Source of the DNA: an uncultured Acidobacteriota bacterium
GTDB taxonomy: Bacteria; Acidobacteriota; Terriglobia; Acidiferrales; UBA7541
Reading direction: 5' to 3'
Length of the DNA stretch: 64,000 nt
Assembly: GCA_963747605.1 (NCBI GenBank)
Contig: CAVVGA010000012.1
Coordinates: 119,471-183,470 of the forward strand
Shown here one piece after another: positions 3,001 to 44,822 of the stretch. The stretch's first letter is position 1; each line of letters begins with the position of its first letter. The notes below the pieces were generated by a model, which did not search any database, had not been told where the DNA came from, and saw only the letters and a program-made list of their open reading frames with translations. Both the position numbers and the translations under genes were made by a program.

Positions 3001-3565
3001 CGCGGCCGCCGTTCACCGAGTAAATCGTGTTGCCCGCGATACCGACTGTCCCTTCATCCTGTCCTGTTTGATTGTTGACGCCGGGCGTCAAAGTGATGAG
3101 CTGCGCGAAGTCGCGTCCGTTCAGTTGTAGTTGCGTGATCTCGGAACCAGTGATGGTGCCGCCCACTTGTGCGGATTGCGTTTCTACTTGGGCGACACCC
3201 TGGCCGGCGACGACGACTTCGCTGGAGAGAGAGCCGACTTCCAAGGTGACGTCCATGCGAGCTTTCTGGCCGACGCGCAGGACCACACCTTTGGCTTGGT
3301 AGGTCTTGAAACCGTTCGCGGTGATGGTGATGTCATAGGTGCCGCTTGGCAGATACGGGATGACCCAGTCGCCGTCGCCATTGGCGGCGGTGGTCTTATT
3401 CATTCCGATGGAGCCGTTGCTGACAGTGACGGTGGCGCCGGCGACAACCGCACCGGTGGTGTCGTGCACCGTGCCGTTCAGCGTGGCGGTGTCCTGCGCG
3501 AGAGCGACGCCGGAGGAGGTGAGGAGCAGGGCGATCAGGCAGCAAGCTTGACGAAGAAATTTCAT
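1..3565 (-). pseudogene. TonB-dependent outer-membrane receptor with carboxypeptidase-regulatory-like N-terminal domain; C-terminus runs off the left edge; reading frame broken many times
   Basis: ORF 1589..3565 opens with a signal peptide (MKFLRQACCLIALLLTSSGVALAQ) followed by DTATLNGTVHDTTGAVVAGATVTVSNGS (CarboxypepD_reg-type), then plug/barrel-like sequence. The barrel continues in other frames: 507..1385 (GYGIFFDHGNGN, SASYTYSHSIDD), 165..377, and 1..170 (LNFDMALFKTFAIHEAIALQFRVEG / FNVFNHTQW, itself split). Hand translation of 1386..1600 needs at least four frame changes. Confidence 0.8.
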
Positions 3566-29701: not shown

Positions 29702-30339
29702 GTCGCAGTTGGGAGGCGCTTTCGCCGGGTGAGATTGTAGTCGAGCCAGGTTGCCGCAGGTGAAAAATGCTGCGCCACAAGACCGTCCCACCCTACACCG
29801 GCGGTTTTGCTCGACGTTGCGGCCGGTTAGTTTTATGACCTTGCAGCCTTTGCAGTTCGGCCACCTTCGTGAGACTCCTGAGGCGACCTTTGATTTTCGT
29901 CGCGAATTGAGCTTTAGCTCGCTCTTCTTATCCCGTACGTATTTCTACGTATTTCTACGAATAGTCAGCAATCGCCGATTGTGTTAGCGTGGGTCGGGGC
30001 AAAGTTGAAGCCCGATATAGGGACGCATTATGCGATGCACGATCCAATCCAGGAATTCCACCCTTCCCCAGCATCGGCCCGGCCTGCCCACCCCAAATCA
30101 ATCGCTAGCGAAACAAAATCGAAAGCCAATGCAAGTCATTGAAAATAATCAACAGCGATCTAAATCAATCGCTCGTTTTTGTCGTGTTTTTTCCGATTGC
30201 GGGGGTAATTCCATTCGCGACGACAATGGCGTGCTAAGCGATTCGGTCTTTCGAGAGGACTGTAGTATTTATCGGCGAAGGGAATCAAACAGTTATAATA
30301 TGACGCTCGGGGTTCGGCTCCGCTCCGGCAAATTCATAT

Positions 30340-31019
30340 ATGAATCGAAAAGACAGAGTTTTTGCTGCGGTGGACCTTGCAGTCGCGGACATTCCGGATG
30401 GCGCGACAGTCATGTTCGGCGGATTCGGCGGCGCGGGATTTCCCAATAATTTAATTCAGGGGTTGGCGCGGCGGGGCGCGCGGAATTTGAGCGTGATCAG
30501 CAATAATTGCGGCACGGGAGACGGCGAGCTGGGGATTCTTTTCAAGCACCGGCAGATCCGCCATGTGGTGGCGGCATTTCCAGGGCCGGGCGCGACATAT
30601 TTTCAACAGCAATTCGACGCAGGGGAAGTGGAGCTGGAACTGGTGCCGCAGGGAATTTTGTGCGAACGGATGCGCGCGTTTGGCGCTGGGATTCCGGCGT
30701 TTTATTCGCCAGTGGGAGTGGGGACGGACGTGGCGAAAGGCAAGGAAGAGCGCGTGATTCGAGGGAAGCGCTATATTTTGGAGCAGGCGCTGGGCGCGGA
30801 TTATGCGTTTATCAAGGCGATCGCGCCGATCGCATGGGAAATCTGGTGTATCGCAAGGCGGCGCGGAATTTTAATCCGATCATGGCGACGGCGGCGAAGG
30901 TCACGATTGTTGAGGTGGACGAAGTAGTGGAGACCGGGACGCTGGATCCGGAAACGATTGTGACGCCTTCGATTTTCGTGGATCGCATCGTGGTGGCGAA
31001 GGGAATTCACAATGCTTAA
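30340..31019 (+). CDS. 3-oxoacid CoA-transferase subunit A, one frameshift
   Basis: ORF 30340..30927 (DGATVMFGGFGGAGFP, ELELVPQG) continues in ORF 30507..31019 (GNLVYRKAARNFNPIMATAAKVTIVEVDEVVE). The switch is near 30820. Confidence 0.8.
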
Positions 31020-31734
31020 AGCGCGGCTGACGCGAGAGCAGATCGCTGAACGCGCGGCGCTGGAATTGCCGGATGGCGCTTACGTGAATTTGGGCTGGGG
31101 AATTCCGAACTTGATTGCGGCGTACGTGCCGAAAGATGTGGTGGTTTATTTTCACAGCGAGAATGGAATTCTGGGGATGGGGCCGCGGGCGAAGGCGGGC
31201 GAGGAAGATTATGATCTGGTGGACGCGATGAAGGTGCCGGTGACGCTGGTTCCTGGCGCGGCTTATTTTTCGCAGGTGGATGCGCATGTGATGACGCGGG
31301 GCGGGCATCTGGACATTTGTATTCTGGGCGGACTGCAGGTTTCGGAGCGCGGCGATTTGGCGAATTGGCGCGTGCCGGGCGCGAAAGGCGCGGGCGGAAT
31401 TGGCGGCGCGATGGATATTTCCGTTGGCGCGCAGAAATTGATCGTGACCATGGAGCATAATGCGAAGGATGGGCAACGGAAAATTGTGAAGACGTGCAAT
31501 TATCCGCTGACGGCGATCGAGTGCGTCAATACGATTATTACGGATTTAGCGGTGATTGACGTGACGGCGGAAGGGTTGGTGCTGCGCGAGGTGGCGCCGG
31601 GATTTACGCCGGAGGAAGTGCAGCAGCAGACCGAGCCGAAATTGCGCTATAGCGGGAAAGTGCCGGAGATGGCGATAGCGAAAGAAGTGAGCGCGAGATT
31701 TTGTTGCTGCGACATTCGGAGTATGATTTTCTGA
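31012..31734 (+). CDS. 3-oxoacid CoA-transferase subunit B
   Basis: 240 aa with YVNLGWGIP, SENGILG and GGIGGAMD. Its start overlaps the end of subunit A. Confidence 0.85.
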   Translation: MLKARLTREQIAERAALELPDGAYVNLGWGIPNLIAAYVPKDVVVYFHSENGILGMGPRAKAGEEDYDLVDAMKVPVTLVPGAAYFSQVDAHVMTRGGHLDICILGGLQVSERGDLANWRVPGAKGAGGIGGAMDISVGAQKLIVTMEHNAKDGQRKIVKTCNYPLTAIECVNTIITDLAVIDVTAEGLVLREVAPGFTPEEVQQQTEPKLRYSGKVPEMAIAKEVSARFCCCDIRSMIF

Positions 31735-31736
31735 CC

Positions 31737-32383
31737 ATGGAAAACGGACAATCGAACGGAAGAAGCCGCCGACTTATTGGATCGGCGAAGGCGGCGGATG
31801 GCTGCTGCGCCACGTGGTGAGCGGCCTTGCGGCGACGGGCATTACGCCAAACATGTTTACGTTTTTGGGCCTGGCGGTGAATTCGTGGGCTGCGGCGCTT
31901 TTTGCGATGGGGATGTTTCGGCAGGCTGCGGCGGTTTTATTTCTTGCGGGATTTTTGGATATGGCGGATGGTCAAGTGGCGCGGCGCGTGGGGCGCGTGA
32001 CGGCGTTTGGCGCGTTTCTGGATTCGACGCTGGACCGCTATTCGGATTTGGCTTTGTACATGGGATTGGTGGTGCATTACACGCTGATCGGGCGGCCATT
32101 TTATATGGCGCTCGCGGCCGTGGCGATGGCGAGTTCGTTCATGGTGAGTTATGCGCGCGCGCGGGCGGAGTCGATTATTCCTTTTTGCAAAGTGGGATTT
32201 ATGGAGCGGCCGGAGCGGCTGGTGCTGCTGATCATGGGCGGCGCGTTTAATCGCATGGCGCAGGTGCTGTGGGTGATCGCGGCGATTTCGACGATTACGG
32301 TGATTCATCGCGTGGTTTATACGTGGCAGGAGTTGCGCGCGGGGCGGTCTTTGCCGGCGGCGAGCGAGACGCAGATTTCTTAA
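31737..32383 (+). CDS. CDP-alcohol phosphatidyltransferase family protein (one frameshift 5 nt after the start)
   Basis: Motif DMADGQVARRVGRVTAFGAFLDSTLDRYSD (DGx2ARx8Gx3Dx3D). The ORF track starts at a GTG at 31814. The same frame is open upstream (KRTIERKKPPTYWIGEGGGWLLRH). It joins the ATG at 31737 if one A is added to the A4 run at 31741..31744. Confidence 0.8.
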
Positions 32384-32416
32384 GGCGACGTGCGCGCTGA
32401 TTTGGCGCGAAAAGTT

Positions 32417-33168
32417 TTAGAACTTCTGTACTGGATTTTCCTTCAGCGATTCTTCCACTGGGGCCGACACAATTTCCTGCACACGCTGCCGTAAGCGCGT
32501 CCACGTCGCCGCGCGCGATCTGGGTCGTGTCAATCGTATCGTGAATGTAGACCGTGATTTTTTCCGGATGCAGCATCCAGTGGCCGGTTTGGAAGAATTG
32601 GTAGGAGCCGACCATGCTTACGGGCACGATGGGAATTCCGAATCTCTGCGCGATGCTGAAGATACCTTTTTTGAAGGGCTGGACGTGGCCGATCGCGGGT
32701 GCGCGAGCCTTCGGCGAAAGCGATCAGGCTGACGCCGGAATCGAGCGCGGCTTTGGCGCGCTGCGTCATGATTTCCAGGCCTTCGCGGCTGGGCGCATCG
32801 GGGACGGGAATATTTCCGAAGCGGCCCATCATCCAGCCGTAGACCGGGACTTTGAAGTGCGATTCGAGTTCGAAGCCGCGCAGGAATTGCGGAATGGCGG
32901 AATAGATGACGAACGGGTCGAAGAGATTTACGTGATTGCAGATGAAGATGCTGGTGCGAGTGGGGTCGAAACCCGGAGCGCGGCGGACTTCGAAGCGCGC
33001 GCCGGCGAGGCGCAGAATGTTGCGGAAGAAGACGCGCTGGGGCCAATCGTTTCTTCTGGGATCGATGACTGCCCCGATTGCGATGAGAATAGTGCCGACT
33101 ACAGCGAAATGAATCCCACTGAGCGCCCATAGCAATGCGGAGCGGACGTTGAGGTAGGCGTGTTTCAT
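32417..33168 (-). CDS. 1-acyl-sn-glycerol-3-phosphate acyltransferase (PlsC/AGPAT family), two frameshifts
   Basis: ORF 32530..33213 from M16 has the NHVNLFDP (HX4D) and FAEGSRT motifs. It continues in 32295..32627 (FKKGIF-like block, PIVPVSMVG). It then continues in a third frame ending [23 protein letters not shown] with a TAA at 32417. Its ATG overlaps the upstream stop (ATGA). Confidence 0.8.
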
Positions 33169-34074
33169 ACGATCACGTCCAGCGCGGCGGGGAGAATTTC
33201 CAGGGACTGGCATTCGAGGCGCATGCTTTCGCCGTCTACCATTACGTTTACCGGGCCGGTGAGTTCGAAATCGATGCGCTTGGTGGCTGCGCGAGATGCG
33301 CTGCGATGATTGATGTGCGTGCCGGTGAAGAGGCGCGGGAGAGTCCAGATCAGGCCGAGGCGGCCGATAGGGCCCCAGCGGACGTACTCGATCAGGCCGT
33401 CTGTCGGGTTTGCGTGCGGAGCGATCAGCATGTGGCCGCCGGTGAATTTGCTGTTGTTGAAGGAGAGGAATAACGCTGGGTCGCGATCGAATTCTCTTGC
33501 TTCGGCCACGCGGTGCGGGAATGCGAGATGTTCGAGCTGCACCAGGCGCGTGAAGACGCCCAGGATGTAGCCGAGTTCGCCCCAGCGTTTGAAGCGGCGG
33601 TTGGCGGTTTCGGCGACGTCGGCGGGAAAGCCTAGCGTGAGGAGATTCAGGAAATAGAGTTCGCCTTGCGGCGTGGCGGAGGCGAATTACGTCGCAGAGG
33701 CGGCGGGAGTTTTTTTGCAGCCTTCGATGGTGTGTTCAACGCCGCGCTTGGTGAAATCTTTCAGGAAGGAATTGCCGGTGCCCAGCGGAAGTAGGCCGAG
33801 CGTGGGACGATCCTGACTTTTGGCGGCTGCGGCCGGGAAAAGTCCGTTGACGATTTCGAAGGAGGTGCCGTCGCCGCCGACTGCCAGGAAATTGCGGGTT
33901 CCTTCGCGCATAGGCTTGGCGTGCGATTTCCGTGGCTTCTCCGGCGCGGGTGGTGTGCGTTACGGTTACGGCGATTCCTGTTTGGCGAACTCTTTCCAGC
34001 ATGCCGGCGGCGAGGTGGCCGGATTTTCCGCCGCCGGCTGCGGGATTTACGATGGCTAGGAATTGCGTGGTCAC
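33165..34074 (-). pseudogene. diacylglycerol-kinase-family lipid kinase (YegS/LCB5-like), at least three frame breaks
   Basis: 33736..34074 (FLAIVNPAAGGGKS), 33687..33911 ([29 protein letters not shown]) and 33165..33542 ([23 protein letters not shown]). Confidence 0.75.
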
Positions 34075-34111
34075 TGGCGCAAATGCTCCGGCTTCGTTGG
34101 TGAGGTGAAGA

Positions 34112-35825
34112 TCACAGCGTCACCACGGCGGAGCGATCGCGGCTTTGGCGGATTTGTTCGGCTAGTTCGGCGCGCTTTATTTTCAGGGAGGCGGTTAGAG
34201 GGAAATCGCGATCCCAGGACAGATAGCCGCTGATGCGTTTGTAATTCAGGAGGCGGCGATTGCGTTCGGCGACGTCTTTCACGAGCGCTTCGGTGATTTC
34301 TGGTGCGGTTTCGGGATGCAGGACGAGGAGGAGTTGTTCGCCTAGCATGGTGCGGACGGGCCAGAGATAATTTGCGGCGAAGACGCAGAATTCTTTTACC
34401 GGAAGGCCGGCGAAATAGGTTTCGACATCTTCGGGATAAATATTTTTGCCTTCCTCGGTGACGATCATGTTTTTTTTGCGGCCGAAGAGTTGGAGATGGC
34501 CGGAGGGATCGAGGCGGCCGAGGTCGCCGGTCATGAGCCAGCCGTCCACGATGGTTTCGGCGGTCATTTCGGGATCGTCGAGGTAGTGGGACATTAGGGT
34601 GCGGCTGCGCACGGTGACTTCGCCAATTCCTTCCGCGCCGGGATTTATGATTTTCACTTCCATGCCGGGGAGCGGCTTGCCGACCGTGTCGCCGCGGAAC
34701 GGTTTCAGATCATTGACCGTGATCACGGTGCCGGCTTCGGTGCAGCCGTAGCCATTGCCTACCGGGATTCCCAGATCGTAGAAAAATTGCAGCGTTTCGG
34801 GTTCGGTGAAAGCGCCGCCTACGAACAGAGCGCGCAAGCTGGCCGCCGAACGCTTGGTGAACTTGCGGAAGCAGGGCGCGGCTGATTTTCAGGTGGGGGC
34901 GGCGGCGGGTCAAGCGCGCGATTTGTGGCGATCAGCGCGTTCAGAATTTGCGCTTGCCGTGGCGGCAAGATCGGCGAAGCGTTGCCGCAGGCCGCGTTCT
35001 AGATTTTTCAGGATCATGGGCACGAGGGCCATGTAGGTGATTTTGTATTTCGTGAAGGCTTCGCGAATGAATTCCGGGCGCAGGGTGCGCAGGTGAACGA
35101 CTGTGGCGCCGCAGGTGAAAGGGCCGATGAAGCCGACCATGAAATCGATCGCGTGATTTGTGGGGAGGATGCTGAGGTAGCGCACGCCGGGCCAGAAGGG
35201 ATAGAGCGAGGTGAGCGCGATGCACTGCTCGAGGTAATTTTCGTGAGTGAGGACGCAGCCTTTGGGGCGGCCGCCGGTGCCGGAGGAATAGACGATGCAG
35301 GCGGGATCGTTGCGCTTGCGCGGGATGAATGTCGGGCTCGGCCTCGGCGCGAAAATGTTCCCAGCGATGCGCGCCGGCGAGATCGGCGTTTGTGGGGGCT
35401 TCGGTTACGAGCACTGTGCGGGCTGCGAGATTTTTGAATTGTTCGGCTTGGGTGATGGCGCGCCAGAGATGATATTCGATGACGAGAAATTCGGCCTGGG
35501 AATGCGCTAAGAGTTGCAGTTGTTCGGCGGCGGTGAGTTTGTAATCGAGCGGGACCAGCACGCCGCCGCAGAAGAAAATCGCGTAGGCCGAAATCAGCCA
35601 CTTGGACTGATTGGTCATGATGATGGTGGCGCGTGTGCCGGCTTGGAGTCCGGCATTTTGTAGTCTGCTCGCCAGAGGGAGCGCTTGCTCTTTGAATTGG
35701 CGATACGTGAGGCGCGCGTTTTCGCGTTCGCGATCGGCTTCGATCAGGCAGATTTCGTCCGGCCAGCGATCGAGCGCGGCGCGCAGCGCTTCGCCGAGCG
35801 AATTGTATTGGCGGAGATCCAGCAT
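34112..35825 (-). pseudogene. adenylate-forming acyl-AMP/CoA ligase 1, at least three frame breaks
   Basis: The N-terminus is ORF 34941..35825. The middle is 34910..35185 plus an unlisted frame carrying an [13 protein letters not shown]-like P-loop. The C-terminus is 34112..34837 ([21 protein letters not shown]). Its ATG overlaps the ACP stop (TAATG). Confidence 0.8.
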
Positions 35826-36067
35826 TACAGGCGTGATTGAATCCGTTGGGCGAGGGTGCGGAAGTCGCTTACGCCCTGGAGTTCGTAGTCGGGGAGCTCG
35901 ATTTGGAAATGCTGTTCGATGCGGGTGAGGAGATCGAGGGCCTGGAGACTATTGATGCCGAGCTTTTTGAAGAAATCGTCGTCGGGCGCGAGCTGATCGC
36001 GCTGGACTTTGAAATGTTCGGCGGCGAGGCGCAGGACTTCGTCGGTGGTTTTGTCTATGGTGTTCAT
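35825..36067 (-). CDS. stand-alone acyl carrier protein
   Basis: 80 aa (MNTIDKTTDEVLRLAAEHF...KKLGINSLQALDLLTRIEQHF). GINSL is the phosphopantetheine-attachment Ser motif. Only the last 80 codons of the 357-aa track ORF 35825..36898 look real. Confidence 0.8.
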   Translation of the reverse strand: MNTIDKTTDEVLRLAAEHFKVQRDQLAPDDDFFKKLGINSLQALDLLTRIEQHFQIELPDYELQGVSDFRTLAQRIQSRL

Positions 36068-36123
36068 CGTCTTTCTATCTTGCCATAATTTTCGCTTGGG
36101 TCTGCATGGTTGCTGCGCGGCGG

Positions 36124-36927
36124 CTAGGGGAGATAGGGCAGCGCGTCGGTGCTTTCGACGAATTTGCGCAGGCCGGCATCTACTGCGGGGCGCATGAAAA
36201 GGTCGCAAAAGATGTCGATTTCGCGGCGGAGCTCGTCGTGGGGGATCGGCTTGATGAATTTTTTGGCGGCGATGGCGGTGCCGCGATCGAATTTTTTTAG
36301 CTGCGCGGCGGTGGAGCGGGCTACGCGGAGGGCGTCGCCTTCGGCTGCTACTTGACTGACTAGGCCGACGGATTGCGCTTTCGCGGCGTTGATGCTGCGG
36401 CCGGTTAGGAGCAGGTCGCGGACTACGGCGTTTCCGAGGTCGCGTTTGAGGCGCGGGATGCCGCCGAAGCCGGGAATCAGGCCCAGGCGGAACTCCGGGA
36501 AACAGAAGCGCGTCATTTTGTCGGCAACGATTAGATCGCAGGCTAGCGCTAGTTCGAAGCCGCCGCCGAAGGTGACGCCGTGAACGGCGGCGATGGTGGT
36601 GAGCGGCGCTTCGTCGAGGGTGTTCATCACGTAGTGGATGCGTTCGAGGAAATCGCGCAGGCCGGCGAGGCGTTCGTCTTTCGGAAGCGATTGGGCTACG
36701 CGATAGGTTTCGCGGAGATCGGCGCCGGCGCAAAAACCTTCTTTGCGCGTGCTCTGGATGATCAGCGCGTGGGATTCGCGCTGCAGCGATGGGAGAGCGG
36801 CGACGAATTTTTCGAGCTCGGCTAGCGTGGCACGGCCGATTTCGTTGCAGGGGGCGCGGTCGAGGGTTAGTTCGACGGTGCCGTCGAGCACGTGCCACGA
36901 AAGTGTTTCGCCTTGAAAGATGTTCAT
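36124..36927 (-). CDS. enoyl-CoA hydratase/isomerase (crotonase) family protein
   Basis: Intact 267 aa with [27 protein letters not shown] and [13 protein letters not shown] oxyanion-hole motifs. Confidence 0.85.
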
Positions 36928-38594
36928 GAGGATTTCTTCTGGTAGAGCGCTTCGATTTCGTTGGCGAAGCGCGCGGTGATGGCGTCGCGTTTTAGTTTGC
37001 CCATGGTGGTGAGCAGGCCGGTTTCCATGGTGAAGGGTTCGGGGACTAGGTGGAACGCGCGAATTTGTTTGTAGTGGGGTTGCGCGGCGTTTACGGCTTC
37101 GATGGCGGATTGAATTTGTTGGTCGGTTAATTTGCTTGCGCCGTTGGTGGCGTTGGGCGTGACGAGGGCGGCGAGGAAGCTGCGTTGATTGCCGATGAGG
37201 ACAACCTGCTGCGCTTCGCGCAAATGTTGCGCGAGTTTTTCTTCGATTGGTTCGGGCGCGATGTTGTGGCCGGAATTCAGGATAATCAAGTTCTTAATAC
37301 GGCCGGTGATGCGCCAGTTGCCGTTTTCGTTGGTTTCGCCCTGATCGCCGGTGTGGAACCAGCCGTCTTGCAGGGCTTTTGCGGTTTCCGCGGGACGCTG
37401 CCAGTATCCGGAAAAAATATTCGGGCCGCGGACCAGGATTTCGCCGTCGTCGGCGCGTTTCATTTCTACGCCGGGGATTGCCGGGCCGACGAAGCCGGGT
37501 TCGACGTGGCCGGGATCATCGGCGGTGCAGATGGCGGTGGTTTCGGTGAGGCCATAGACCTGCAGGACCGGGATGCCGAGCATCATGAAAAAAAGCTGGG
37601 TTTCGATGGCTAGCGGAGCGGAGCCGCAGAGCAGAGGCTTTCAGGTTGGGGCCGATACTTTTGCGGATTGCCGGGAACATGAGGGAATTGCCGAGCGCGA
37701 GCCAGAGGGAATCGGCGAACTTGGTTTGTTTATTGTGGCGGCGCATGAAGGCTTGCTGGGCGCGCGGGAAAATCGCTGTGGCGAGGCCACCGCGTTCTTG
37801 GACGCGTGGTCTGAATTCTGGTCGCGCACGCGTTCGAGGAGCGTGGGAACATTCAGAAAATATTCGGGCGCGGCGAGTTTTAATTCGTCGGCGAGTTTGG
37901 TCAAGGTCGGTGGAAAGCGACAGGACGCTGTGGCGCGAGAGCGCGGTGAGGAGCAGGATCCAGGACGCGGCGAAGCAGAACGGAGCGTAATGAAAGATGC
38001 GCTCTGGTTGGGTGCGCGAGCCCATCAATTTATCGAGGCGCGAATTTGTGGCGCCGACGATGTGATTTACATTTCCGGCGGTGAGGATTACGCCTTTGGG
38101 TTCGCCGGAGGTTCCTGAGGTGTAGATGATCGAAATGATGTCGGGGTCTTCGTGGTGCATGGGCGGCGTGGGGGCGCTTGGTTCGCCCGCATAGACGCCT
38201 TCGAGCAGTGAAATTTGCGGGGCTTGCGGCCAGAGTTTTTTTATTTCGGCGGCTATCGCGGCGTCGAGGCAGAAAATGCGCGAGGGCGTGGAGTCCTGCA
38301 TCATCGCCACCAATTCGGCGGGGGCTTGGCGGGCGTAGAGCGGCACGACGACTATTCCTTCGGCCATCAGGGCGAGGTCGAGCGCGGCCCAGCGAATGCT
38401 GTTTGGCGCGAGCAGCGCGCAGCGATCACCTTTTTGCAGGCCGCGGGCTAGGAGAAAGTGGCGGGCTTGCTGAGTCATGGCGAGCAATTCGCTGCCGGTG
38501 ACGGAGTGGATTTTTTCGCCGTGAATTTCCTGCAGCACCGGCTCGCTGGCGGATTGTTTTCAGCTGAGTCGAAAATGTTTTCGAGAAATGTCAT
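36924..38594 (-). pseudogene. adenylate-forming long-chain acyl-CoA synthetase 2 (FadD-like), at least four frame breaks
   Basis: The ATG at 38594 (MTFLENIFDSAENN) overlaps the upstream stop (ATGA). 37516..38538 has IYTSGTSGEPKG, 37641..37904 is the middle, and 36924..37586 has YGLTETT, TGDQGE and GKLKR. Confidence 0.8.
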
Positions 38595-40017
38595 GCGGCG
38601 AGGACTCCGCTGTGTTTTTCGAGCAGTTTTAGAAGGCCGGGGCCGAGCGGGGGAAGATAATCTTCCCAGCTGAGGACGCCTTTGCGCACGGGGAATTGCG
38701 GATAGCGGCGCGCGACTTGCTCTTCGAAATACGTGCCCATGCGAGCCATCAATTGCAGATTGCGGGCTACGGTGCGTTCCATCGCATCGGGAATTTCTTC
38801 CGCTTCGGAATCGAGCGCGCGGAGGGCTGCGACGATTTTGTCGGCCAGGCCGGATTCATCCACGCGCATGAGGAGATGCTCGTGGCCGCGTTCGCGAAGA
38901 AGATTGCGGATGCGCTCGTCCATGGTGACGCCGGCGGAGGGAATGCCGGCGGGCATGGTGGTGACGATGGCGTGATAGCGCGAGGAGAGCAGGCGATCGC
39001 AGGCGCGCAGGATGCTGACTAGCTCGTACATGTTGAATTGATCGGAGCCGAAGACGGGCGCGCCGCCTAGTTTTTCCGCGACGCGCTGCGCAGGCATCGC
39101 GGTCGAGCATTTCCATCGCGACCATTACCGGGAAGACCTTGCGCGATTTTTGGTAGCCGGCGACGCCTGCGGCCATTTCGCTGAGATATTTTTCGTAGGC
39201 GGCGTCCACTTGGGAGCCGGAGCGATGGAAATAAATCGTGCGGTAGTAGCTTTTTTTGTAGGCGCCTGCTACGGAGTGCGCGAGCCATTTAGCGAGCGAC
39301 GCGGTGACCGGCCACCAGAACGGATTGATGGGGCAGATGGCTAGCACGGGAGTTGTGCCGTCCCAGCCTGCATCGCGCAGGGCTTTGCGGCCGTATTCGG
39401 GGCCGAGCGGTTCGAAAGTCCAGGCGGTGTCTGTGCCTAGTTCGGTTGGGACGCCGAGTTTGCCGAGGACGGCTTGCGATTCGACGTTGCGAGTGATGAT
39501 CAGGGAATCGCGGCAGTAGCGGCGACGTCATTTTTTGCAGGAGCGGGTCCATGGCGCCTGCTTCGGCGCCGTAAGCGATGCTTAATTTATTTTGCGCGGA
39601 GGCGATGCCTAGCGCGCCGATCATCATTGTTGTGAGGGCATTGGCGAATTTACTTTTGAACATGGAGCCTTCGCAGGCGACGACGCCGTCGTTTGCGCGC
39701 ACTACTTTGTGCAGGAACGGCGGGAAGACGTCTGGTAGATGGACCTGGCGGGCGTCGCCGAAATATCCGCGGGTGAGATCGAAATTCTGCGACATGACGC
39801 TGAGGGCGAGATTTTCGTCGCCAAGGATGCGGCGGACCTGGCGAATCATTTCTTCGACGCGGACGTCGGAGCCGGTGTTGCGCGTGCCGTTGTATCCGGC
39901 GAAGAGCAGTTTCAGTTTTGTGCCGGGCTGCCAGGCGTGTCCGGCGCCGAGCATCCACTCGAACTTGTTGAGTTCGATGAGGCCGCTGACCCAGGATTCC
40001 AGGAGCAGGTCGGTCAT
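38591..40017 (-). pseudogene. polysaccharide pyruvyl-transferase-family protein, at least two frame breaks
   Basis: The start MTDLLLESW is at 40017 (ATGA overlap with the upstream stop). The pieces are the tail of track ORF 39289..41184 ([21 protein letters not shown]), 38856..39347 and 38591..39097 (LLSSRYHAIVTTM). The assignment rests on my recollection of PS_pyruv_trans proteins. Confidence 0.6.
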
Positions 40018-41184
40018 TGGTGCGGATCCTGGGAGGCGTTGGCGGCGCGCGAGGCGGCGTGGACGGGCGCGTCGGCGGGCCATTCGCGATATTTGAAGAC
40101 GAAATGATTTTCGCGGCTGAAGCGCAGCAGCGGGAGGCTGTATTGCGAGAAGGGTGCGGGATGGCGGCCGAGTTCTTCGACGACGCGGGTGTTGTCGAAA
40201 ACCGTGTTCCACAAAAGATAGGGGAGGAAGACTTTCAGCAGCGTGGCCAGGCCGCCGATTTTTCCGGCGCGGCCTGCGAGGGCGTTGACGATTTTCTCCG
40301 TGGATTTTTCGAAGCTGGGGACGAAGACGGGGCCGCGCTTGTCTTGCGCTTTGGAGAGCGCTTCGGTTAGTTCGATGAACGTTTCGGATTCGCGGCCGGA
40401 CGAGAGATGGTAAATCTCGTGCGCCGGGATTTTCTTTTTGGTGCAGCGTGGAGACGGCGTCGGCGACGAAGTCTACCGGGACGATATCAAGGCGATCGCC
40501 GGGGCGGAAGGGAAGCATGGGGAGGCTGGCGAGGAAGACGAAGGCGCGCACCATGTCGAATTGATTGGTTTCGGGGCGGCGGCTATCGCCGAGGACGATG
40601 CTGGGGCGGAAAATGGTGCGCTGCACGTCTGGCAGTAGCTGGTGGACCATGTGCTCGCAGAATTTTTTGGTGCGGGCGTAGGGATCGTAGTCGGAGCGAT
40701 TCCAGTCGATCGCGGTGTCTTCCTGGACTACTTCGTTCGAGCGTTGGCCGGCGACGGCAACCGTGCTGACGTGGCTGAAGCGGCGGAGGCCGTGCTGGTC
40801 GCGGGCGCGCTGGGCGAGTTGGATGACTTCGAGCGTGCCGCGGAGATTTACGTTGAGGCAGCTTTTTTCGGATTTGCGATTCAGGGATGCGGCGCAGTGG
40901 ATTACCGAGTCTGTGCTGCGGACGAGTTGCGCGTAGTCGTCGTCGGAGAGGCCGAAATATGCGTCGGTGAGATCGCCGCGAAAAATGCGGATGCGGGAAC
41001 GCAGCAGTTCATCGAAGCGGGCGAAATCCAGATGCAGCTGGAGAGCGCGCCAGAGGCGTTCTTGCGCTTCCTGTTCATCGCGCGCGCGGACGAGCAGGTT
41101 CAGCGGGTCGGAATGGCCCGTAAGCAAATTCGACGCGATGTGCGCGCCGATATATCCGGTGGAACCGGTCAGGAGGATGGCCAC
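40014..41184 (-). CDS. thioester-reductase-like SDR (NAD_binding_4 type), at least one frameshift
   Basis: GTG start at 41184. [19 protein letters not shown]...LNLLVRA...[17 protein letters not shown]...VIHCAASLN...[12 protein letters not shown] is the pattern of terminal thioester reductases. The C-terminus is in frame 40014..40214. Confidence 0.7.
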
Positions 41185-43701
41185 AGTGATTGAGTTTCAG
41201 GATGCCGTTGCCGGACCCGAGTTTGATGAACCTGAGCTTGCTGCTGCCGCATTGCGGCAGCACCCGCGGCGGTGGTGACGTTCGCTTCGTTGCGCGATGC
41301 GAGAGGCACGGAGCGCCGGGGACGCGATTCCAGCTGGCGTCCTTCGATGAGAGGATAACACCACTTGCGCAGAGCGGGAATGTGCACGTTGATCCAGTAA
41401 TCCCACCAATCGAGGGCGCGGGAATCGTAGCCGAAGTCGGCTTGTTCGTCGGGCGGGAGCGCGGCGCTGAGGCGTTCGACGTTGGCGGCTTCAAAGACAT
41501 GATCGTTGTGGAGGATGAAGGGCTCGAAGAGCGAGATGAGCTTGACGACTTTTTCGAGTTCGCGTTCCTGGCGGGCTAGCGGAGGCTTGGAGGCGAACGG
41601 TTCCGTGGCGCGATTGATCGCTTTCACTACCGCTTTTTGCGCAGGGGCGGAGATGGCTTTGTAGCGCGTTTTGGAGACGGGGATGGCGTCGAAGCGCGGC
41701 GCGCATGCGTTGTTGGATGTCGGCGTGCGCGCGATAAAATTTGCGGTGGCCGAGGCCCGTTAGTTCGATGGAGCGGCGCATGTTGCAGGCGTTGGCTACC
41801 GAAGTGGCGAGTTGATAGACGCGCTGGTGACGGCGGGTTACTAGCGCGGCGGAGATCAGGGTCATGCCGCGGCAGACTAGATCAACCGGGATGAGGTCGA
41901 GGCATTTGGACTCGTTGGTGGGGAGTTGGCGGAAGAAAGTTCCTAGCAGGTAGGAGAGCGAGGCGGAGGTGTTGATGCCTTCGTTCCAGCCCAGGAAGGG
42001 CTTTTCCAGGGAGGATTCGACGATTGCTGGGCGTACTACGGCGATTGCGGCTTGCGGGTTGGCGTCCAGAAAATTGTGGATCAGCGATTCGGAAATACTT
42101 TTCGTGAAGGTGTAGGTATTGGGCCAGCCCAGTTCGTTGGCGCGGCGCGAAGCTGCGTCGGTGAGGGTTTGGCGGAGCCAGCGGACGCGGTTCTTGCGGA
42201 TTTGATTTTCGAGCGCGTGGCCTTGCAGGTTTTTGGCGGCGTGTTCTTTTTTTTGCGCGGCGCGGCGGAGTTCGGCTGTGACTTCTTCGGATTCGGCGCG
42301 GGTTTCAGTTTCCTTGATGAGATTTTCCAGCGATTGCCATTCTATTACTGCGTCGTAATCGGGGATGCCGCGCGGCGTGTAGTTTTTTGGCAATTCTTCC
42401 AGAACGCGGCCGTCGCGTTGGCCTACTACGTAGCAGGTGGAGAGATGCAGGAGCGAGGCGTGCGCGCATTCTTTGAGGAAATCGAGGACGTAGGCTGTGG
42501 ACCGGACGTTTACTGCCAGGGCGTCGCGCAGATCGGGGTTGAAATCGGTTAGGCCAGAGCTGTTGACGATCACGTCGAGTGTGCGGGAGAGCTTTTGCTG
42601 GTCTTGCGTGCTGAGGCCGAGGCCGGGTTTGCTGACATCACCGTCTACTACTTCGATATGATTGCGCAGAAATTCCGCGAAGTTGTCGCCGTGGCTGTTC
42701 GGCTAGCTTTTCGAATACTGGGGATTCTTCGATTACGCGTTGGAGGCGTTCGAGGGAGGTGTTGGCTTCGATTGTGGCGGACGAGCAGGTAGATGCGGGC
42801 GATTTCGGGCAGGTCGGTGAGCAGATTTGCGAGCCAAACTTTTCCGATGAAGCCGGTGGCGCCGATGAGCAGGATATTTTTTCCGCGGAGGGCTGCGCGA
42901 GCGGAAAACGCGTGGACGGCCGTTGCGCGATTCGTAGTGGACTACTGGGACGTAGACTTTGGGCGCGGCGCGTTCGGCTGGTTTGACGGCTTCGTCGAGG
43001 ACTTGAGGATTTTTTTCGAAGCCGAGAATGCTGATTAATTTTTCGCGGGGGACGCGGCCGTCTGGTTGGCTGCCGGTGAATCTGGCGAACGCGCCGCGGG
43101 GACGGATTACCGGGTCGAGCAGGCGTCCGGTGGCAATGCCTTCGCGGAAATCGAGGCGATTGGAAATGATGCGCATGATACCCAGATGCTTCGCTAGCGG
43201 ACGCATGATGTGGTCTAGGCCCTGGCTGACGAGGACGATTTCGCCGCCGGCGGCTATCGCTTCTTGCAGTTCGGCGACGCCTGGCTGCTTCAGGCGCGGC
43301 TTCAGAAAATATTCGAAGAATTCTTCGCCCAGGAGGTCGAAGCGGTCGCGGCTGACTCCGCGGAGGACGGTGTGCAGCAGGCGAGTGGCGAAGACGCGGT
43401 CAGTGATGTAGAGGAAGGGGCGGGCGAGGGCGAGAATGGCCATGGCGCCGCGGCGCGTCCAGCGTTCCAGGAAGCTTTGCGAATTCCAGGCGAAGAAGCC
43501 GACCGGGCGTACGGCGGTGAGGTTGAGCAGGCTGCCTTCGACGCGCCAGAAGACAGGCTCGCGCGCGGGTGCGGAGGCGTGTTGCGCAGGCCCGGTGATT
43601 TTCGAGATTTGATCGTTTGAATTAGACTGTGACATCGTTGAGTGAGTTGCTGCTGGTGATTCGGAAGTAGTGAAATTATCACGGTATTTGGCGGCAAGCA
43701 A
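41169..43701 (-). pseudogene. fusion of an N-terminal HAD-IB-like domain and a fatty acyl-CoA/ACP reductase (NAD_binding_4), at least five frame breaks
   Basis: The HAD-like part is ORF 42733..43701. Hand translation of 42560..42960 gives ...[10 protein letters not shown] / [44 protein letters not shown] / [26 protein letters not shown] / [28 protein letters not shown]. It then continues in 41491..42573 (NTYTFTKSISE) and 41169..41627. Confidence 0.7.
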
Positions 43702-43766
43702 GCGGGGGTGGGATCGTAGGGCGAGCTGGACTCTAAATCGTCCAACAATCGGCCCGACAATGGGCT

Positions 43767-44822
43767 TCAGTGGAATTTCTTTTCGAGGGCCGGCAATGTT
43801 TCGATGAAAACGTGGCCGACGATTGCCAGGCTGCGCGGGTCAACTTTTTCCAGCGTGTCGTCTGGAGTGTGCCAATAGGTTGGCTGGACGTCGAAATCGA
43901 TGATGTCGCAGCCGGGGACGCCGCGGCGGATAAATGAAAAATGATCGTCGCCGCCTACCGTGGTGGTTTCGTTGACGAAAACATTCCCGTATCCCAAACG
44001 CGCGGCGATCATCCAAATAAGATCCGTTAGCCAGGGCGTGGAGCCGGTGTCGCGCTTTATTTTTAGATCGGAAGGACCAATCATGTCCGCGAGAATCATT
44101 GCTTTGACGTGTTTGAGGTCGCCGGAGAGCGCCAGGCTAGCGGCCGTCTCGCGGCTGCCAAACGTGCTGTTGGTGTCCTGCCACTGGACGCTGTTCTTGT
44201 CGGGCCAGTTTTCCTGCGCTTCTTCACCATCGAAAAATACAATCCACGTGTTGAGAGCGCTCTTGGTCTTGCGGGCGCAGAAAATTCGGGCCAGCTCCAG
44301 CATCGTGCCGGTGCCGGAACCGCCATCATCGGCGCCGACGAAATTCGGCAAACGTATGGTGTCGTAGTGGGTGGTGAAGAGGACGATGCCGCTTGCGGTG
44401 CCGGGAATTTTGGCGATGATGTTTTTCATCGCGATGTCGCCGAGGGGCGTCGAGCCGTGGAAGTCGTGCTCTTCGACGGGACAGCCGAAACTTTTTAGCT
44501 GGCTGATGATGTAGGCCTGCGCGCGATGAATTCCTTGCGAGCCTGGCGGGCGAGGTCCGATTTCGACTAGTTTGCGAACGTGTTCGAAGGCTTGGGCACC
44601 GTCGAAGCCACCGGTCGCGGAGGGAGGAAGGGCCGCGGGTGGATTCGCCGCTTGCGTTATCGCTGAGGCGTTCGCGGTAGCACGGCTTTCGCTGGATGGC
44701 TGACTGTTGCAGGCAAGTGTGCACAACCACACCAAGTTCGTAAAGACGATTCCACATTTGCGCACCTTGAACCTCCCGTTACGGCGCACTCGCGACGGTA
44801 AGTCACTCAAACGTCGAACCAC
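43767..44822 (-). CDS. M28-family metallopeptidase (aminopeptidase/glutaminyl-cyclase-like), lipoprotein-type signal
   Basis: 351 aa with LVWLCTLACNS (lipobox-like), HYDTIRLPNFVGADDGGSGTGTMLELAR and VFFDGEE. Confidence 0.8.
   Translation of the reverse strand: MVRRLSDLPSRVRRNGRFKVRKCGIVFTNLVWLCTLACNSQPSSESRATANASAITQAANPPAALPPSATGGFDGAQAFEHVRKLVEIGPRPPGSQGIHRAQAYIISQLKSFGCPVEEHDFHGSTPLGDIAMKNIIAKIPGTASGIVLFTTHYDTIRLPNFVGADDGGSGTGTMLELARIFCARKTKSALNTWIVFFDGEEAQENWPDKNSVQWQDTNSTFGSRETAASLALSGDLKHVKAMILADMIGPSDLKIKRDTGSTPWLTDLIWMIAARLGYGNVFVNETTTVGGDDHFSFIRRGVPGCDIIDFDVQPTYWHTPDDTLEKVDPRSLAIVGHVFIETLPALEKKFH

What the first reader, a model, noticed from the sequence alone, without database searches (positions are those of the whole stretch)
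31737..43701. Nine translationally coupled genes for an unusual lipid pathway (two adenylating ligases, free ACP, two NAD_binding_4 reductases, crotonase, pyruvyl-transferase-like protein, lipid kinase, PlsC) facing a CDP-alcohol phosphatidyltransferase
On the minus strand from 43701 to 32417, the order is: HAD-FAR fusion, thioester-reductase-like SDR, pyruvyl-transferase-like protein, FadD-like ligase, crotonase, ACP, second ligase, DAG-kinase-family lipid kinase, and PlsC.

- Almost every junction is a start/stop overlap that I read directly. These are ATGA at 40014-40017, 38591-38594 and 33165-33168, TAATG at 35823-35827, and a 4-nt overlap at 36924-36927.
- A CDP-alcohol phosphatidyltransferase converges on the 3' end.
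- There is no ketosynthase, so this is not a PKS/FAS. The logic is: activate fatty acids, reduce them to aldehyde/alcohol, then build or modify a glycerolipid and its head group.
- As I recall it, the activity set overlaps the Myxococcus ether-lipid protein ElbD (ligase-ACP-reductase-AGPAT in one polypeptide), but here split and expanded.
- Acidobacteria are known for ether and membrane-spanning lipids whose genetics are only partly solved. This operon is therefore a candidate for an undescribed alkyl/ether or fatty-alcohol-derived lipid route.
Basis: partly seen in the sequence, partly recalled or inferred. Interest (0 to 1): 0.75.

Follow-up and report, generated by a model that had tools for sequence, protein, structure and literature searches.

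The report
Conserved split elb-like lipid operon
This is a real nine-gene lipid-building operon, conserved in uncultured soil Acidobacteria and also present in a cultured myxobacterium, that looks like a taken-apart and expanded version of the myxobacterial ether-lipid (elb) machinery. Its product is still unknown, and its broken reading frames in this window are most likely sequencing errors.

Summary
**Observation.** It holds. On the minus strand, 43635-32417 encodes these genes in order:
- HAD-like/FAR fusion
- thioester-reductase-like SDR
- pyruvyl-transferase-like (PyrT-like) protein
- ligase 1
- crotonase
- ACP
- ligase 2
- DAG-kinase-family lipid kinase
- PlsC

A CDP-alcohol phosphatidyltransferase converges on the 3' end. 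All five quoted start/stop overlaps are there.

**Frameshifts.** Seven of the nine genes are broken by 23 single-base insertions. Six close relatives have none. After removing the insertions, dN/dS is 0.05-0.15, the same as among intact relatives. Indels also hit intergenic DNA and unrelated neighbouring genes. They are therefore assembly errors, not gene decay.

**Conservation.**
- The nine genes are colinear in 66 of 80 species-level Acidiferrales/Terriglobia genomes. The other 14 loci are cut by contig ends.
- The same order recurs in a Blastocatellia MAG, in Sandaracinaceae and in Sandaracinus amylolyticus.

**Interpretation.** The domain set equals ElbB + ElbD + ElbE of Myxococcus, split into separate genes. 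It adds a PyrT-like GT-B enzyme, a crotonase, a second ligase and a lipid kinase. An alkyl-ether glycerophospholipid pathway is the best reading, but the product and the ether-forming step are unproven. Sequence-level orthology to M. xanthus Elb proteins could not be tested.

**Verdict.** New variant of a known kind, of moderate interest.

The parts
41169..43635 (-). HAD-like domain fused to an alcohol-forming fatty acyl reductase (NAD_binding_4 + Sterile). It is 805 aa in the intact relative. Frames are broken here by single-base insertions at 42912, 42768, 42696 and 41700.
   Evidence: Pfam. tblastn against the L001 orthologue. Insertions. GATGFIG and YxxxK motifs present in the relative. 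HAD motif I reads R-x-E-G-S-L instead of D-x-D-G-T-L.
40014..41184 (-). Thioester-reductase-like SDR (NAD_binding_4/Epimerase), 389 aa in relatives. One inserted base at 40425.
   Evidence: Pfam. TIGR01746 scores 144 bits, below its cut-off of 213. 96.7% aa identity to L001 after frame correction.
38591..40017 (-). Pyruvyl-transferase-like GT-B protein (PyrT-like), 474 aa after frame correction. Inserted bases at 39528 and 39089.
   Evidence: Reconstruction. 96% identity to the intact 474-aa P0001. PF04230 scores 35.4 bits against a cut-off of 25.3. TIGR03609 CsaB scores 63.6 against 213. AlphaFold2 pLDDT 95 with a GT-B fold.
36924..38594 (-). Ligase 1, a FadD11-like acyl-CoA synthetase type (AMP-binding + AMP-binding_C_3), 554 aa in relatives. 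Six inserted bases.
   Evidence: Pfam. NCBIfam. Insertions. A3/A5/A7/A10 motifs present in the relative.
36124..36927 (-). Crotonase-fold enoyl-CoA hydratase/dehydratase, 267 aa, an intact ORF.
   Evidence: Pfam ECH_1. Both catalytic Glu are conserved (GGGFELAL and FPEFRLG). Best solved match is a 3-hydroxybutyryl-CoA dehydratase, 5jbw.
35825..36067 (-). Free-standing acyl carrier protein, 80 aa, intact. Its stop overlaps the start of ligase 2 (TAATG).
   Evidence: PP-binding. The GINSL serine is present. Overlap verified.
34112..35825 (-). Ligase 2, an adenylating enzyme paired with the ACP, 569 aa in relatives. Four inserted bases inside the gene. One search lists window-specific insertions at 35336, 34966, 34959, 34915 and 34837, and one deleted base at 34950.
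   Evidence: Pfam. Orthologues are distinct from ligase 1, at about 25% identity. Motifs present.
33165..34074 (-). YegS/DAG-kinase-family lipid kinase, 304 aa in relatives. Two inserted bases and one deleted base.
   Evidence: DAGK_cat and YegS_C. TIGR00147 scores 117.5 bits against a cut-off of 118.65. GGDG motif present.
32417..33168 (-). PlsC/AGPAT-type acyltransferase, 249 aa in relatives. Inserted bases at 32694 and 32494.
   Evidence: Pfam Acyltransferase. HX4D and FAEGSR motifs present.
31737..32383 (+). Convergent CDP-alcohol phosphatidyltransferase of the (archaetidyl/phosphatidyl)inositol-phosphate synthase type, 215 aa in relatives. A 1-nt deletion lies at about 31749. It is adjacent in 65 of 66 Acidiferrales/Terriglobia loci but not in Blastocatellia or Sandaracinus.
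   Evidence: Pfam. NCBIfam NF040950 scores 155.7 (cut-off 180) and NF045883 scores 126.4 (cut-off 170). CDP-OH motif present. Adjacency.

Best explanation
**What it is.** A functional, co-transcribed operon in the living organism. It encodes a dissociated, expanded relative of the myxobacterial elb ether-lipid system.

**Proposed mechanism** (all steps inferred from family chemistry unless marked otherwise):
1. Ligase 2 adenylates a fatty acid and loads it on the adjacent free ACP. Ligase 1 makes a CoA thioester.
2. The FAR module (NAD_binding_4 + Sterile) reduces an activated fatty acyl group to a fatty alcohol. The second, thioester-reductase-like SDR carries out another reductive release from a thioester.
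3. The alcohol is joined to a C3 backbone. The always-present PyrT-like GT-B enzyme and the catalytically competent crotonase are the best candidates for this unexplained step.
4. The YegS-family lipid kinase phosphorylates the resulting alkyl(acyl)glycerol.
5. PlsC acylates the free hydroxyl, giving an alkyl-acyl analogue of phosphatidic acid.
6. In Acidiferrales, the neighbouring inositol-phosphate-synthase-like transferase can then add a head group after CDP activation.

**What is shown.** Gene content, gene order, coupling, purifying selection, intact catalytic motifs and cross-phylum conservation.

**What is inferred.** The substrates, the order of steps and the ether product.

**Frameshifts.** Those seen in this window are sequencing/assembly artefacts.
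For: **Gene content and coupling.**
- Domains.
- Start/stop overlaps.

**Conservation.**
- Nine genes colinear in 66 of 80 species representatives. The rest are contig-truncated.
- Same order, with 32-71% identical orthologues, in S. amylolyticus, a Sandaracinaceae MAG, a Blastocatellia MAG and contig L087.
- Gene fusions tie the PyrT-like protein to the pathway. Examples are PyrT-like + ligase-1-type AMP-binding (967 aa) and Sterile + PyrT-like.

**Function retained.**
- Catalytic motifs are intact for FAR, SDR, both ligases, ACP, kinase, PlsC and the CDP-OH transferase. The crotonase keeps both catalytic Glu.
- dN/dS is 0.05-0.15.

**Link to elb.**
- The elb domain inventory (ElbB HAD-like, ElbD FAR-ACS-ACP-AGPAT, ElbE NAD-dependent epimerase family) is given in PMC9131029 and PMC13012113.
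- elb-like clusters with split elbD plus DAG-kinase and CDP-alcohol-transferase neighbours are described in Acidobacteriota and Poribacteria.

**Frameshifts as artefact.**
- 27 window-specific 1-nt insertions and four 1-nt deletions lie in 30.2-43.7 kb. Three insertions are in the crotonase-ACP spacer and others are in the CoA-transferase genes.
- No close relative has them.
- Unrelated genes elsewhere in the window are also split.
Against: - No sequence comparison with M. xanthus ElbA-E was possible, so the elb relationship rests on domain content, taxonomy and literature descriptions.
- ElbC is described as having no recognisable domain. Almost all members of the PyrT-like family are recognised by Pfam PF04230. 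ElbC may therefore not be the PyrT-like protein.
- The elb operon as described has no crotonase, second ligase or kinase.
- No enzyme with a demonstrated ether-forming activity (AGPS, PlsA/Ger) is in the cluster.
- Genomic presence of elbD homologues does not always go with ether lipids, as with Pontiella (PMC11868695).
- The HAD-like domain lacks the nucleophilic Asp, so a phosphatase step is doubtful.
- No lipid data exist for Acidiferrales.
- The indel errors are patchy: 44-62 kb tiles with intact ORFs. I cannot explain that without the reads.
Confidence: 0.55

Rival explanations
1. **PEP-dependent backbone-building ether route** (the novel case).
1. FAR makes a fatty alcohol.
2. The PyrT-like enzyme transfers enolpyruvate from PEP to it, giving a 2-alkoxyacrylate. 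This is MurA-like enol-ether chemistry, the first half-reaction of ketal pyruvyl transferases.
3. A ligase loads this acid on ACP or CoA.
4. The crotonase hydrates the activated double bond to 2-O-alkyl-glyceroyl thioester.
5. The thioester-reductase-like SDR reduces it to 2-O-alkylglycerol.
6. The kinase phosphorylates it and PlsC acylates it.

The glycerol moiety would be built from PEP rather than taken from G3P or DHAP.
For: - It gives every conserved gene its canonical chemistry.
- It explains why a PEP-transferase-like protein, an adenylating enzyme, an ACP, a hydratase with both catalytic Glu and a TR-type reductase always travel together.
- The PyrT-like protein is found fused to a ligase. 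This fits a carboxylate product that must be activated.
- Ligase 2 + ACP + TR-like SDR together resemble a split A-T-R carboxylic acid reductase.
- The family keeps the N-terminal G-Y-x-G-x-x-N-x-G-(D/S) motif and the R-x-H motif as invariant or near-invariant columns. That these motifs are typical of pyruvyl transferases is my own recollection.
Against: - It is purely inferential.
- The route can only give an ether on the middle carbon (sn-2). Acidobacterial and myxobacterial monoethers are described as 1-O-alkyl (PMC10087280 and PMC9131029).
- Similarity to true pyruvyl transferases is weak. It falls below the CsaB equivalog cut-off, and no solved pyruvyl transferase appears among sequence or top-50 fold matches.
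- Ligase 1 is missing from one Sandaracinaceae version.
Confidence: 0.12
2. **Non-ether, fatty-alcohol-derived or diol-derived lipid.** The reductases and crotonase would make a long-chain alcohol or 1,3-diol from a (3-hydroxy)acyl thioester. The kinase would phosphorylate it and PlsC acylate it, giving a glycerol-free or otherwise unusual phospholipid, or wax-type products.
For: - Two reductases, a hydratase, a lipid kinase and an acyltransferase are present, but no recognised ether-forming enzyme.
- None of the nine proteins reaches a curated NCBIfam cut-off, so substrate assignments are open.
Against: - It gives no role to the PyrT-like protein, which is the most constant and most specific member of the cluster.
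- No such lipids are reported for Acidobacteria or Sandaracinus in the papers I could read.
- The domain set matches elb, which is genetically tied to ether lipids.
Confidence: 0.15
3. **Dead pseudogene array.** The operon in this organism would have been inactivated by many frameshifts and be decaying.
For: Seven of nine genes, and the convergent transferase, are out of frame in the window. The 20 kb downstream tiles with intact ORFs.
Against: - After removing the inserted bases, dN/dS against L001 is 0.05-0.15 per gene, indistinguishable from intact relatives.
- 27 of 31 single-base events are insertions, many outside homopolymers.
- Events also fall in intergenic spacers and in unrelated genes: CoA-transferase, MFS, IlvD and an outer-membrane barrel.
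- Dozens of frameshifts with no rise in non-synonymous change is not how decay looks.
Confidence: 0.05
4. **Polysaccharide or cell-surface pyruvylation cluster.** It would carry a lipid-anchor module, following the family name of the PyrT-like gene.
For: PF04230 and TIGR03609 (CsaB) are the only family matches for that protein.
Against: No glycosyltransferase, flippase, polymerase or sugar-nucleotide gene is part of the conserved block in any lineage examined. The fusions are to lipid enzymes.
Confidence: 0.03

Closest known systems
Myxococcus xanthus elbA-E ether-lipid operon (MIBiG BGC0000871; ElbD = MXAN_1528)
   Same: The activities match:
- FAR-like reductase, acyl-activating enzyme, ACP and AGPAT-type acyltransferase (= ElbD).
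- A HAD-like protein (= ElbB).
[quoted passage not shown]

It has no AGPS and no ketosynthase. It occurs in Myxococcota and Acidobacteriota.
   Different: - Here every ElbD domain is a separate gene, and the HAD-like part is fused to the FAR.
- The cluster adds a PyrT-like GT-B protein, a crotonase, a second ligase and a lipid kinase.
- Sequence-level orthology to the M. xanthus proteins was not tested.
- Whether ElbC corresponds to the PyrT-like protein is unknown and doubtful.
elb-like gene cluster families of sponge-associated Acidobacteriota and Poribacteria (bioRxiv 10.64898/2026.06.23.733905; PMC9426513)
   Same: These are elbD/elbB-centred clusters, some with elbD split into two ORFs. 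Their neighbours include glycerol-3-phosphate acyltransferases, DAG kinases and CDP-alcohol phosphatidyltransferases.
   Different: - Those clusters keep a multidomain NRPS-like ElbD core.
- The text does not mention a pyruvyl-transferase-like or enoyl-CoA hydratase gene (0 occurrences).
- Different lineages are involved: subdivision 6 and Poribacteria, against Terriglobia/Acidiferrales.
Eukaryotic/myxobacterial AGPS route (FAR + GNPAT + AGPS + acyl/alkyl-DHAP reductase + AGPAT)
   Same: It shares FAR-type alcohol formation, a PlsC-superfamily acyltransferase and an SDR-type reductase. A kinase and phosphatase logic is also known from ether-lipid salvage.
   Different: There is no AGPS (FAD_binding_4) homologue in the cluster, so the ether-forming enzyme is not identified.
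Carboxylic acid reductases / NRPS-like A-T-R enzymes
   Same: Ligase 2, the ACP and the thioester-reductase-like SDR give the same A, T and R activities. NCBIfam carboxylic acid reductase and thioester-reductase models hit both reductases and ligase 1.
   Different: The parts are three separate proteins, and all scores are far below the curated cut-offs.
Ketal pyruvyl transferases (CsaB/WcaK/Pvg1 family, PF04230)
   Same: There is a weak but near-full-length profile match, a two-Rossmann GT-B-type fold, and conserved N-terminal Gly-rich and R-x-H motifs.
   Different: - The protein is about 470-520 aa with extra C-terminal helices.
- The context is never polysaccharide-related.
- It forms its own family of about 1,000 clusters at 50% identity.

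Membership tests
elb ether-lipid cluster (M. xanthus type) | FAR-like reductase, acyl-activating (ACS), ACP and AGPAT activities encoded together | tested here: met
   Pfam NAD_binding_4 + Sterile, AMP-binding, PP-binding and Acyltransferase lie in one operon. The elb definition is taken from PMC9131029.
elb ether-lipid cluster (M. xanthus type) | These four activities fused in one multidomain ElbD polypeptide | tested here: not met
   They are separate ORFs in the window and in all 66 complete relatives, and in Sandaracinus and Blastocatellia.
elb ether-lipid cluster (M. xanthus type) | HAD-like ElbB and NAD-dependent epimerase/dehydratase-family ElbE present | tested here: met
   PF12710 HAD is fused to the FAR here and free-standing in Sandaracinus. 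PF01370/PF07993 mark the SDR. The HAD nucleophile Asp is absent.
elb ether-lipid cluster (M. xanthus type) | Sequence-level orthology to MXAN_1527-1531, including ElbC | not testable with these tools
   No M. xanthus sequence could be reached. The genome-contig scan returned only the 80 closest loci and the look-ups were exhausted.
elb ether-lipid cluster (M. xanthus type) | Cluster required for alkyl/alkenyl ether lipid production | not testable with these tools
   This needs genetics and lipidomics. It is only shown for M. xanthus elbD.
Polysaccharide (ketal) pyruvyl transferase, PF04230 / TIGR03609 CsaB | Profile match above the curated threshold | tested here: inconclusive
   PF04230 scores 35.4 bits against a cut-off of 25.3, so it passes. 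TIGR03609 scores 63.6 bits against a cut-off of 213.1, so it fails. No solved pyruvyl transferase is found by sequence.
Polysaccharide (ketal) pyruvyl transferase, PF04230 / TIGR03609 CsaB | Polysaccharide biosynthesis context | tested here: not met
   The neighbours are lipid enzymes in every lineage.
Polysaccharide (ketal) pyruvyl transferase, PF04230 / TIGR03609 CsaB | Uses PEP as donor | not testable with these tools
   A biochemical assay is needed.
Alcohol-forming fatty acyl reductase (FAR) | NAD_binding_4 Rossmann domain with GxxGxxG and YxxxK, plus a C-terminal Sterile domain | tested here: met
Enoyl-CoA hydratase (crotonase) with hydratase chemistry | Two catalytic glutamates and oxyanion-hole motifs | tested here: met
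   GGGFELAL and FPEFRLG align with solved hydratases/dehydratases. That these are the positions of the catalytic glutamates is my own recollection.
Phosphatidylinositol-phosphate / archaetidylinositol-phosphate synthase | CDP-alcohol motif and a score above the NCBIfam equivalog cut-off | tested here: inconclusive
   The motif D-x2-DG-x2-AR...G-x3-D-x3-D is present. NF040950 scores 155.7 (cut-off 180) and NF045883 scores 126.4 (cut-off 170).
AGPS-dependent or PlsA/Ger-dependent ether routes | AGPS (FAD_binding_4/FAD-oxidase_C) or PlsA/Ger homologue in the cluster | tested here: not met
   None is found among the cluster genes or the window ORFs scanned.

The most novel reading that the evidence does not exclude
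The cluster encodes a previously unknown way of making ether lipids, in which the C3 backbone is built on the alcohol.
1. A PEP-dependent enolpyruvyl transfer to a fatty alcohol is carried out by the PyrT-like GT-B enzyme.
2. The acid is activated on ACP or CoA.
3. The crotonase hydrates it.
4. The thioester is reduced to 2-O-alkylglycerol.
5. The lipid kinase phosphorylates it and PlsC acylates it.

This would be an oxygen-tolerant, AGPS-independent and Ger-independent source of sn-2 ether bonds in soil and peat Acidobacteria and in Sandaracinus.
Probability: 0.12. Interest if true: 0.9.

Novelty: new variant of a known kind. Interest (0 to 1): 0.55.

Why it matters
- How aerobic Acidobacteria make ether bonds is still unresolved. 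That includes the ether bonds of brGDGT palaeoclimate biomarkers, which are abundant in peat and soil. Mss and Ger are tied to anaerobes, and the role of elb in Acidobacteria 'has not been conclusively demonstrated'.
- This operon is a fixed feature of Acidiferrales, an uncultured order recovered from peat, palsa and Danish soils. It is shared with ether-lipid-producing Blastocatellia.
- Its constant but unassigned members (PyrT-like enzyme, crotonase, second reductase) are concrete candidates for the missing ether-forming step of elb-type pathways.
- The same cluster sits in Sandaracinus amylolyticus, so the question becomes directly testable by knockout and lipidomics.

Tried and rejected
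- **Exact-sequence look-up of the window's crotonase.** Not on record.
- **tblastn of the PyrT-like protein against PLSDB plasmids**, hoping for an annotated elb-type locus. No match.
- **Profile search of the PyrT-like family against PDB sequences.** Only noise. Foldseek gave generic GT-B hits (UDP-GlcNAc 2-epimerases, glycosyltransferases) and no pyruvyl transferase in the top 50.
- **Attempts to reach M. xanthus ElbC/ElbD.**
  - The genome-contig scan kept only the 80 closest loci.
  - A profile search without Acidiferrales members, and a search seeded with the Sandaracinaceae protein, gave Sandaracinus, Blastocatellia, Amycolatopsis and Alphaproteobacteria, but no Myxococcus.
  - Paper searches for elbC/MXAN locus tags gave no sequence or domain information.
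- **Look-up of the Amycolatopsis homologue.** Failed.
- **Distant family members (30-37% identity).** They stand alone in unrelated contexts and say nothing about the operon.
- **Promoter/terminator scan.** Nothing above shuffled expectation.
- **PKS/FAS reading.** Rejected because there is no ketosynthase.
- **Sphingolipid pathway.** Rejected because there is no serine palmitoyltransferase.
- **GC skew as an artefact.** Rejected because relatives show the same skew.

Full report
**What is in the sequence**

- a HAD-like domain fused to a fatty acyl reductase (NAD_binding_4 + Sterile)
- a second NAD_binding_4/Epimerase-type SDR
- a protein matching PS_pyruv_trans
- an AMP-binding ligase with AMP-binding_C_3
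- a crotonase
- a PP-binding ACP
- a second AMP-binding ligase
- a DAGK_cat/YegS_C lipid kinase
- a PlsC-type acyltransferase

A CDP-OH_P_transf gene converges on the plus strand.

The five quoted start/stop overlaps are all present. They are ATGA at 40014, 38591, 36924 and 33165, and TAATG at 35823.

Only the crotonase and the ACP are intact ORFs in the window. The other genes are split over two or three frames.

**Are the frameshifts real?**

A relative with 96% identical PyrT-like protein (L001, ENA contig of 902 kb) carries all nine genes intact. Their lengths are 805, 389, 474, 554, 267, 80, 569, 304 and 249 aa. It also has a convergent transferase of 215 aa.

DNA identity between the window and L001 is 88.7% over window 30229-43706.

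I aligned the window to six close relatives:
- The window has 27 private single-base insertions and four private single-base deletions in 30.2-43.7 kb.
- Three of the insertions lie in the crotonase-ACP spacer, and other events lie in the neighbouring CoA-transferase genes.
- Twenty-three insertions fall inside seven of the nine genes. The relatives have none.

After the inserted bases are removed, per-gene dN/dS against L001 is 0.05-0.15. That is the same range as L002, L004 and L009 against L001.

Other, unrelated genes of the window are also split. These are an outer-membrane barrel at 0.5-3.6 kb, IlvD at 23.8-25.5 kb, an MFS transporter at 28.4-29.8 kb and CoA-transferase A at 30.3-31.0 kb. 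By contrast, 44-62 kb tiles with full-length ORFs.

Dozens of +1 insertions, no relaxation of selection, and hits in non-coding and unrelated DNA point to patchy assembly or polishing error, not decay. I cannot prove this without reads.

**Conservation**

A genome scan with a family alignment returned at least 594 loci. The 80 best are species representatives named Acidiferrales, Terriglobia or Acidobacteriota, mostly MAGs from soil and peat.
- In 66 of them all nine genes are present, colinear and on one strand.
- The other 14 are cut by contig ends.
- 65 of the 66 have the convergent CDP-alcohol transferase.

Beyond this order, the same block occurs in four other places:
- A Blastocatellia MAG, with an extra KAS III and a DUF4199 gene.
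- A Sandaracinaceae MAG, with HAD as a separate gene and no ligase 1.
- The complete genome of Sandaracinus amylolyticus. Its order is HAD, FAR, SDR, PyrT-like, ligase 1, crotonase, ACP, ligase 2, kinase, PlsC, TetR.
- An unassigned contig without the HAD part.

Orthologues are 32-71% identical. Ligase 1 and ligase 2 form separate orthologous groups, with about 25% identity between them.

The inositol-phosphate-synthase-like transferase is adjacent only in the Acidiferrales/Terriglobia group.

**The individual proteins**

In the intact relatives all expected catalytic motifs are present:
- GxxGxxG and YxxxK in both reductases
- the A3, A5, A7 and A10 motifs in both ligases
- the ACP serine
- GGDG in the kinase
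- HX4D and EGxR in PlsC
- the CDP-alcohol motif
- both catalytic glutamates of the crotonase

The HAD-like domain is the exception. In Acidiferrales, Blastocatellia and Sandaracinaceae alike, motif I reads R-x-E-G-S/A-L instead of D-x-D-G-T-L. A canonical phosphatase role is therefore unlikely.

None of the nine proteins reaches a curated NCBIfam cut-off.

The convergent transferase is closest to archaetidylinositol-phosphate synthase (155.7 bits, cut-off 180). Its next best match is bacterial phosphatidylinositol-phosphate synthase (126.4 bits, cut-off 170).

The PyrT-like protein:
- It belongs to a distinct family of about 470-520 residues. The family has 985 clusters at 50% identity with E ≤ 0.001.
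- It passes the Pfam PF04230 threshold weakly.
- It aligns over nearly the whole CsaB model, but far below the cut-off.
- It folds with high confidence (pLDDT 95) into a GT-B-type two-Rossmann structure.
- Natural fusions link it to a ligase-1-type adenylating enzyme and to the FAR C-terminal domain.
- Distant members (about 30-37% identity) stand alone in other contexts.

**Comparison with what is known**

The M. xanthus elb operon is described as follows (PMC9131029, PMC13012113):
- ElbA and ElbE are NAD-dependent epimerase/dehydratase family proteins.
- ElbB is HAD-like.
- ElbC has no recognisable domain.
- ElbD is FAR-ACS-ACP-AGPAT.
- elbD is genetically required for alkyl and vinyl ether lipids.
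- The ether-forming chemistry is unresolved.

elb homologues were reported in subdivision 4 Acidobacteria.

A 2026 preprint describes elb-like cluster families in sponge Acidobacteriota and Poribacteria. These include split elbD and neighbouring acyltransferases, DAG kinases and CDP-alcohol phosphatidyltransferases.

The present operon contains every recognisable elb activity, but as single-function genes. It adds four constant members: the PyrT-like protein, a crotonase, a second ligase and a lipid kinase. In the papers I could search, none mentions a pyruvyl-transferase-like or enoyl-CoA hydratase gene in this context.

I could not obtain any M. xanthus Elb sequence. Membership in the elb family therefore rests on domain content, taxonomy and literature, not on measured orthology. 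Because nearly all PyrT-like family members are recognised by Pfam, while ElbC is called a protein of unknown function, ElbC is probably not this protein.

**Mechanism**

The best-supported reading is an elb-type alkyl-ether glycerophospholipid pathway:
1. Fatty acid activation by ligase 2 onto the ACP, and by ligase 1 to CoA.
2. Reduction to a fatty alcohol by the FAR.
3. A further reductive step by the thioester-reductase-like SDR.
4. Attachment of the alcohol to a C3 backbone.
5. Phosphorylation by the lipid kinase.
6. Acylation by PlsC.
7. Head-group attachment.

What is shown is gene content, coupling, conservation, selection and intact active sites. The substrates and the product are inferred.

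The most novel reading not excluded is that the backbone is built from PEP. An enolpyruvyl ether would be formed by the PyrT-like enzyme, activated, hydrated by the crotonase and reduced by the SDR to 2-O-alkylglycerol. This uses each gene's canonical chemistry and explains the fusions. It predicts sn-2 ethers, whereas the described acidobacterial and myxobacterial monoethers are sn-1.

The rivals are a non-ether alcohol or diol lipid, a true pseudogene array and a polysaccharide pyruvylation role. The last two are poorly supported.

**Verdict**

It is under purifying selection and widely conserved. The ElbD analogy is reasonable but not measured. The claim of an entirely undescribed route is overstated, because elb-like clusters in Acidobacteriota are already in the literature.

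The fully split architecture with PyrT-like, crotonase, second ligase and kinase genes appears to be an undescribed variant. So does its fixation in an abundant uncultured soil and peat order. It is made testable by its presence in a cultured Sandaracinus.

Noticed in passing
window 507-3565, 23827-25549, 28369-29791, 30340-31019: Unrelated genes are also split across frames. They are an outer-membrane beta-barrel protein, IlvD/Edd dehydratase, an MFS transporter and CoA-transferase subunit A. In contrast, 44-62 kb tiles with full-length ORFs. Sequence quality in this window is patchy.
   Followed up: partly
whole window; L001, L002, L009 6400-17590: GC skew is unusually strong: +0.15 to +0.35 on the plus strand over most of the window, whatever the gene orientation. 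Relatives show the same magnitude (-0.18 to -0.21 in sense orientation of the operon). It is therefore a genuine strand bias of this lineage, and the operon lies on the C-rich sense strand.
   Followed up: partly
window 43635-42900; L001 6405-7100; L089 6449-7120; L091 6518-7186: The HAD-like domain has R-x-E-G-S/A-L where HAD phosphatases have the D-x-D-G-T-L nucleophile motif. This holds in Acidiferrales, Blastocatellia and Sandaracinaceae. It is probably not a phosphatase.
   Followed up: partly
window 31737-32383: The convergent CDP-alcohol transferase scores higher against the archaeal archaetidylinositol-phosphate synthase model, whose substrate is an ether lipid, than against the bacterial PIP synthase model. 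No inositol-1-phosphate synthase was seen among the window ORFs scanned.
   Followed up: partly
L090 14344-15342 and 8314-8814: The Blastocatellia version of the operon has a KAS III (FabH-like) gene inserted between the crotonase and the ACP. It also has a DUF4199 gene after the HAD-FAR gene.
   Followed up: no
L085 1600-2781, L086 1407-2588, and the contigs of P0155: Distant stand-alone members of the PyrT-like family (30-37% identity) lie near patatin-like lipase genes in two unrelated contexts. This hints that the wider family is also lipid-related.
   Followed up: no
L082 553-9478: A variant cluster has three notable parts. One is a PyrT-like protein fused to a ligase. One is a thioester-reductase-like SDR. 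One is a 1093-aa AMP-binding + NAD_binding_4 protein. It also carries an unknown 240-aa protein and a short-chain dehydrogenase, and it has no crotonase, ACP, kinase or PlsC on the 10-kb contig.
   Followed up: no
window 43767-44822 versus L001 1-6400: Between the M28 peptidase gene and the operon, L001 carries five extra genes that the window lacks. These are 2-hydroxyacid dehydrogenase, a zinc alcohol dehydrogenase, DUF1427, an alginate-export-like porin and a PNP_UDP_1 protein. The upstream boundary of the operon is therefore a recombination or indel point.
   Followed up: no
window 44941-48633: Directly upstream of the peptidase lies a 1230-aa secreted-looking protein with TPR repeats, FG-GAP/VCBS-type repeats and an ASPIC/UnbV domain.
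   Followed up: no
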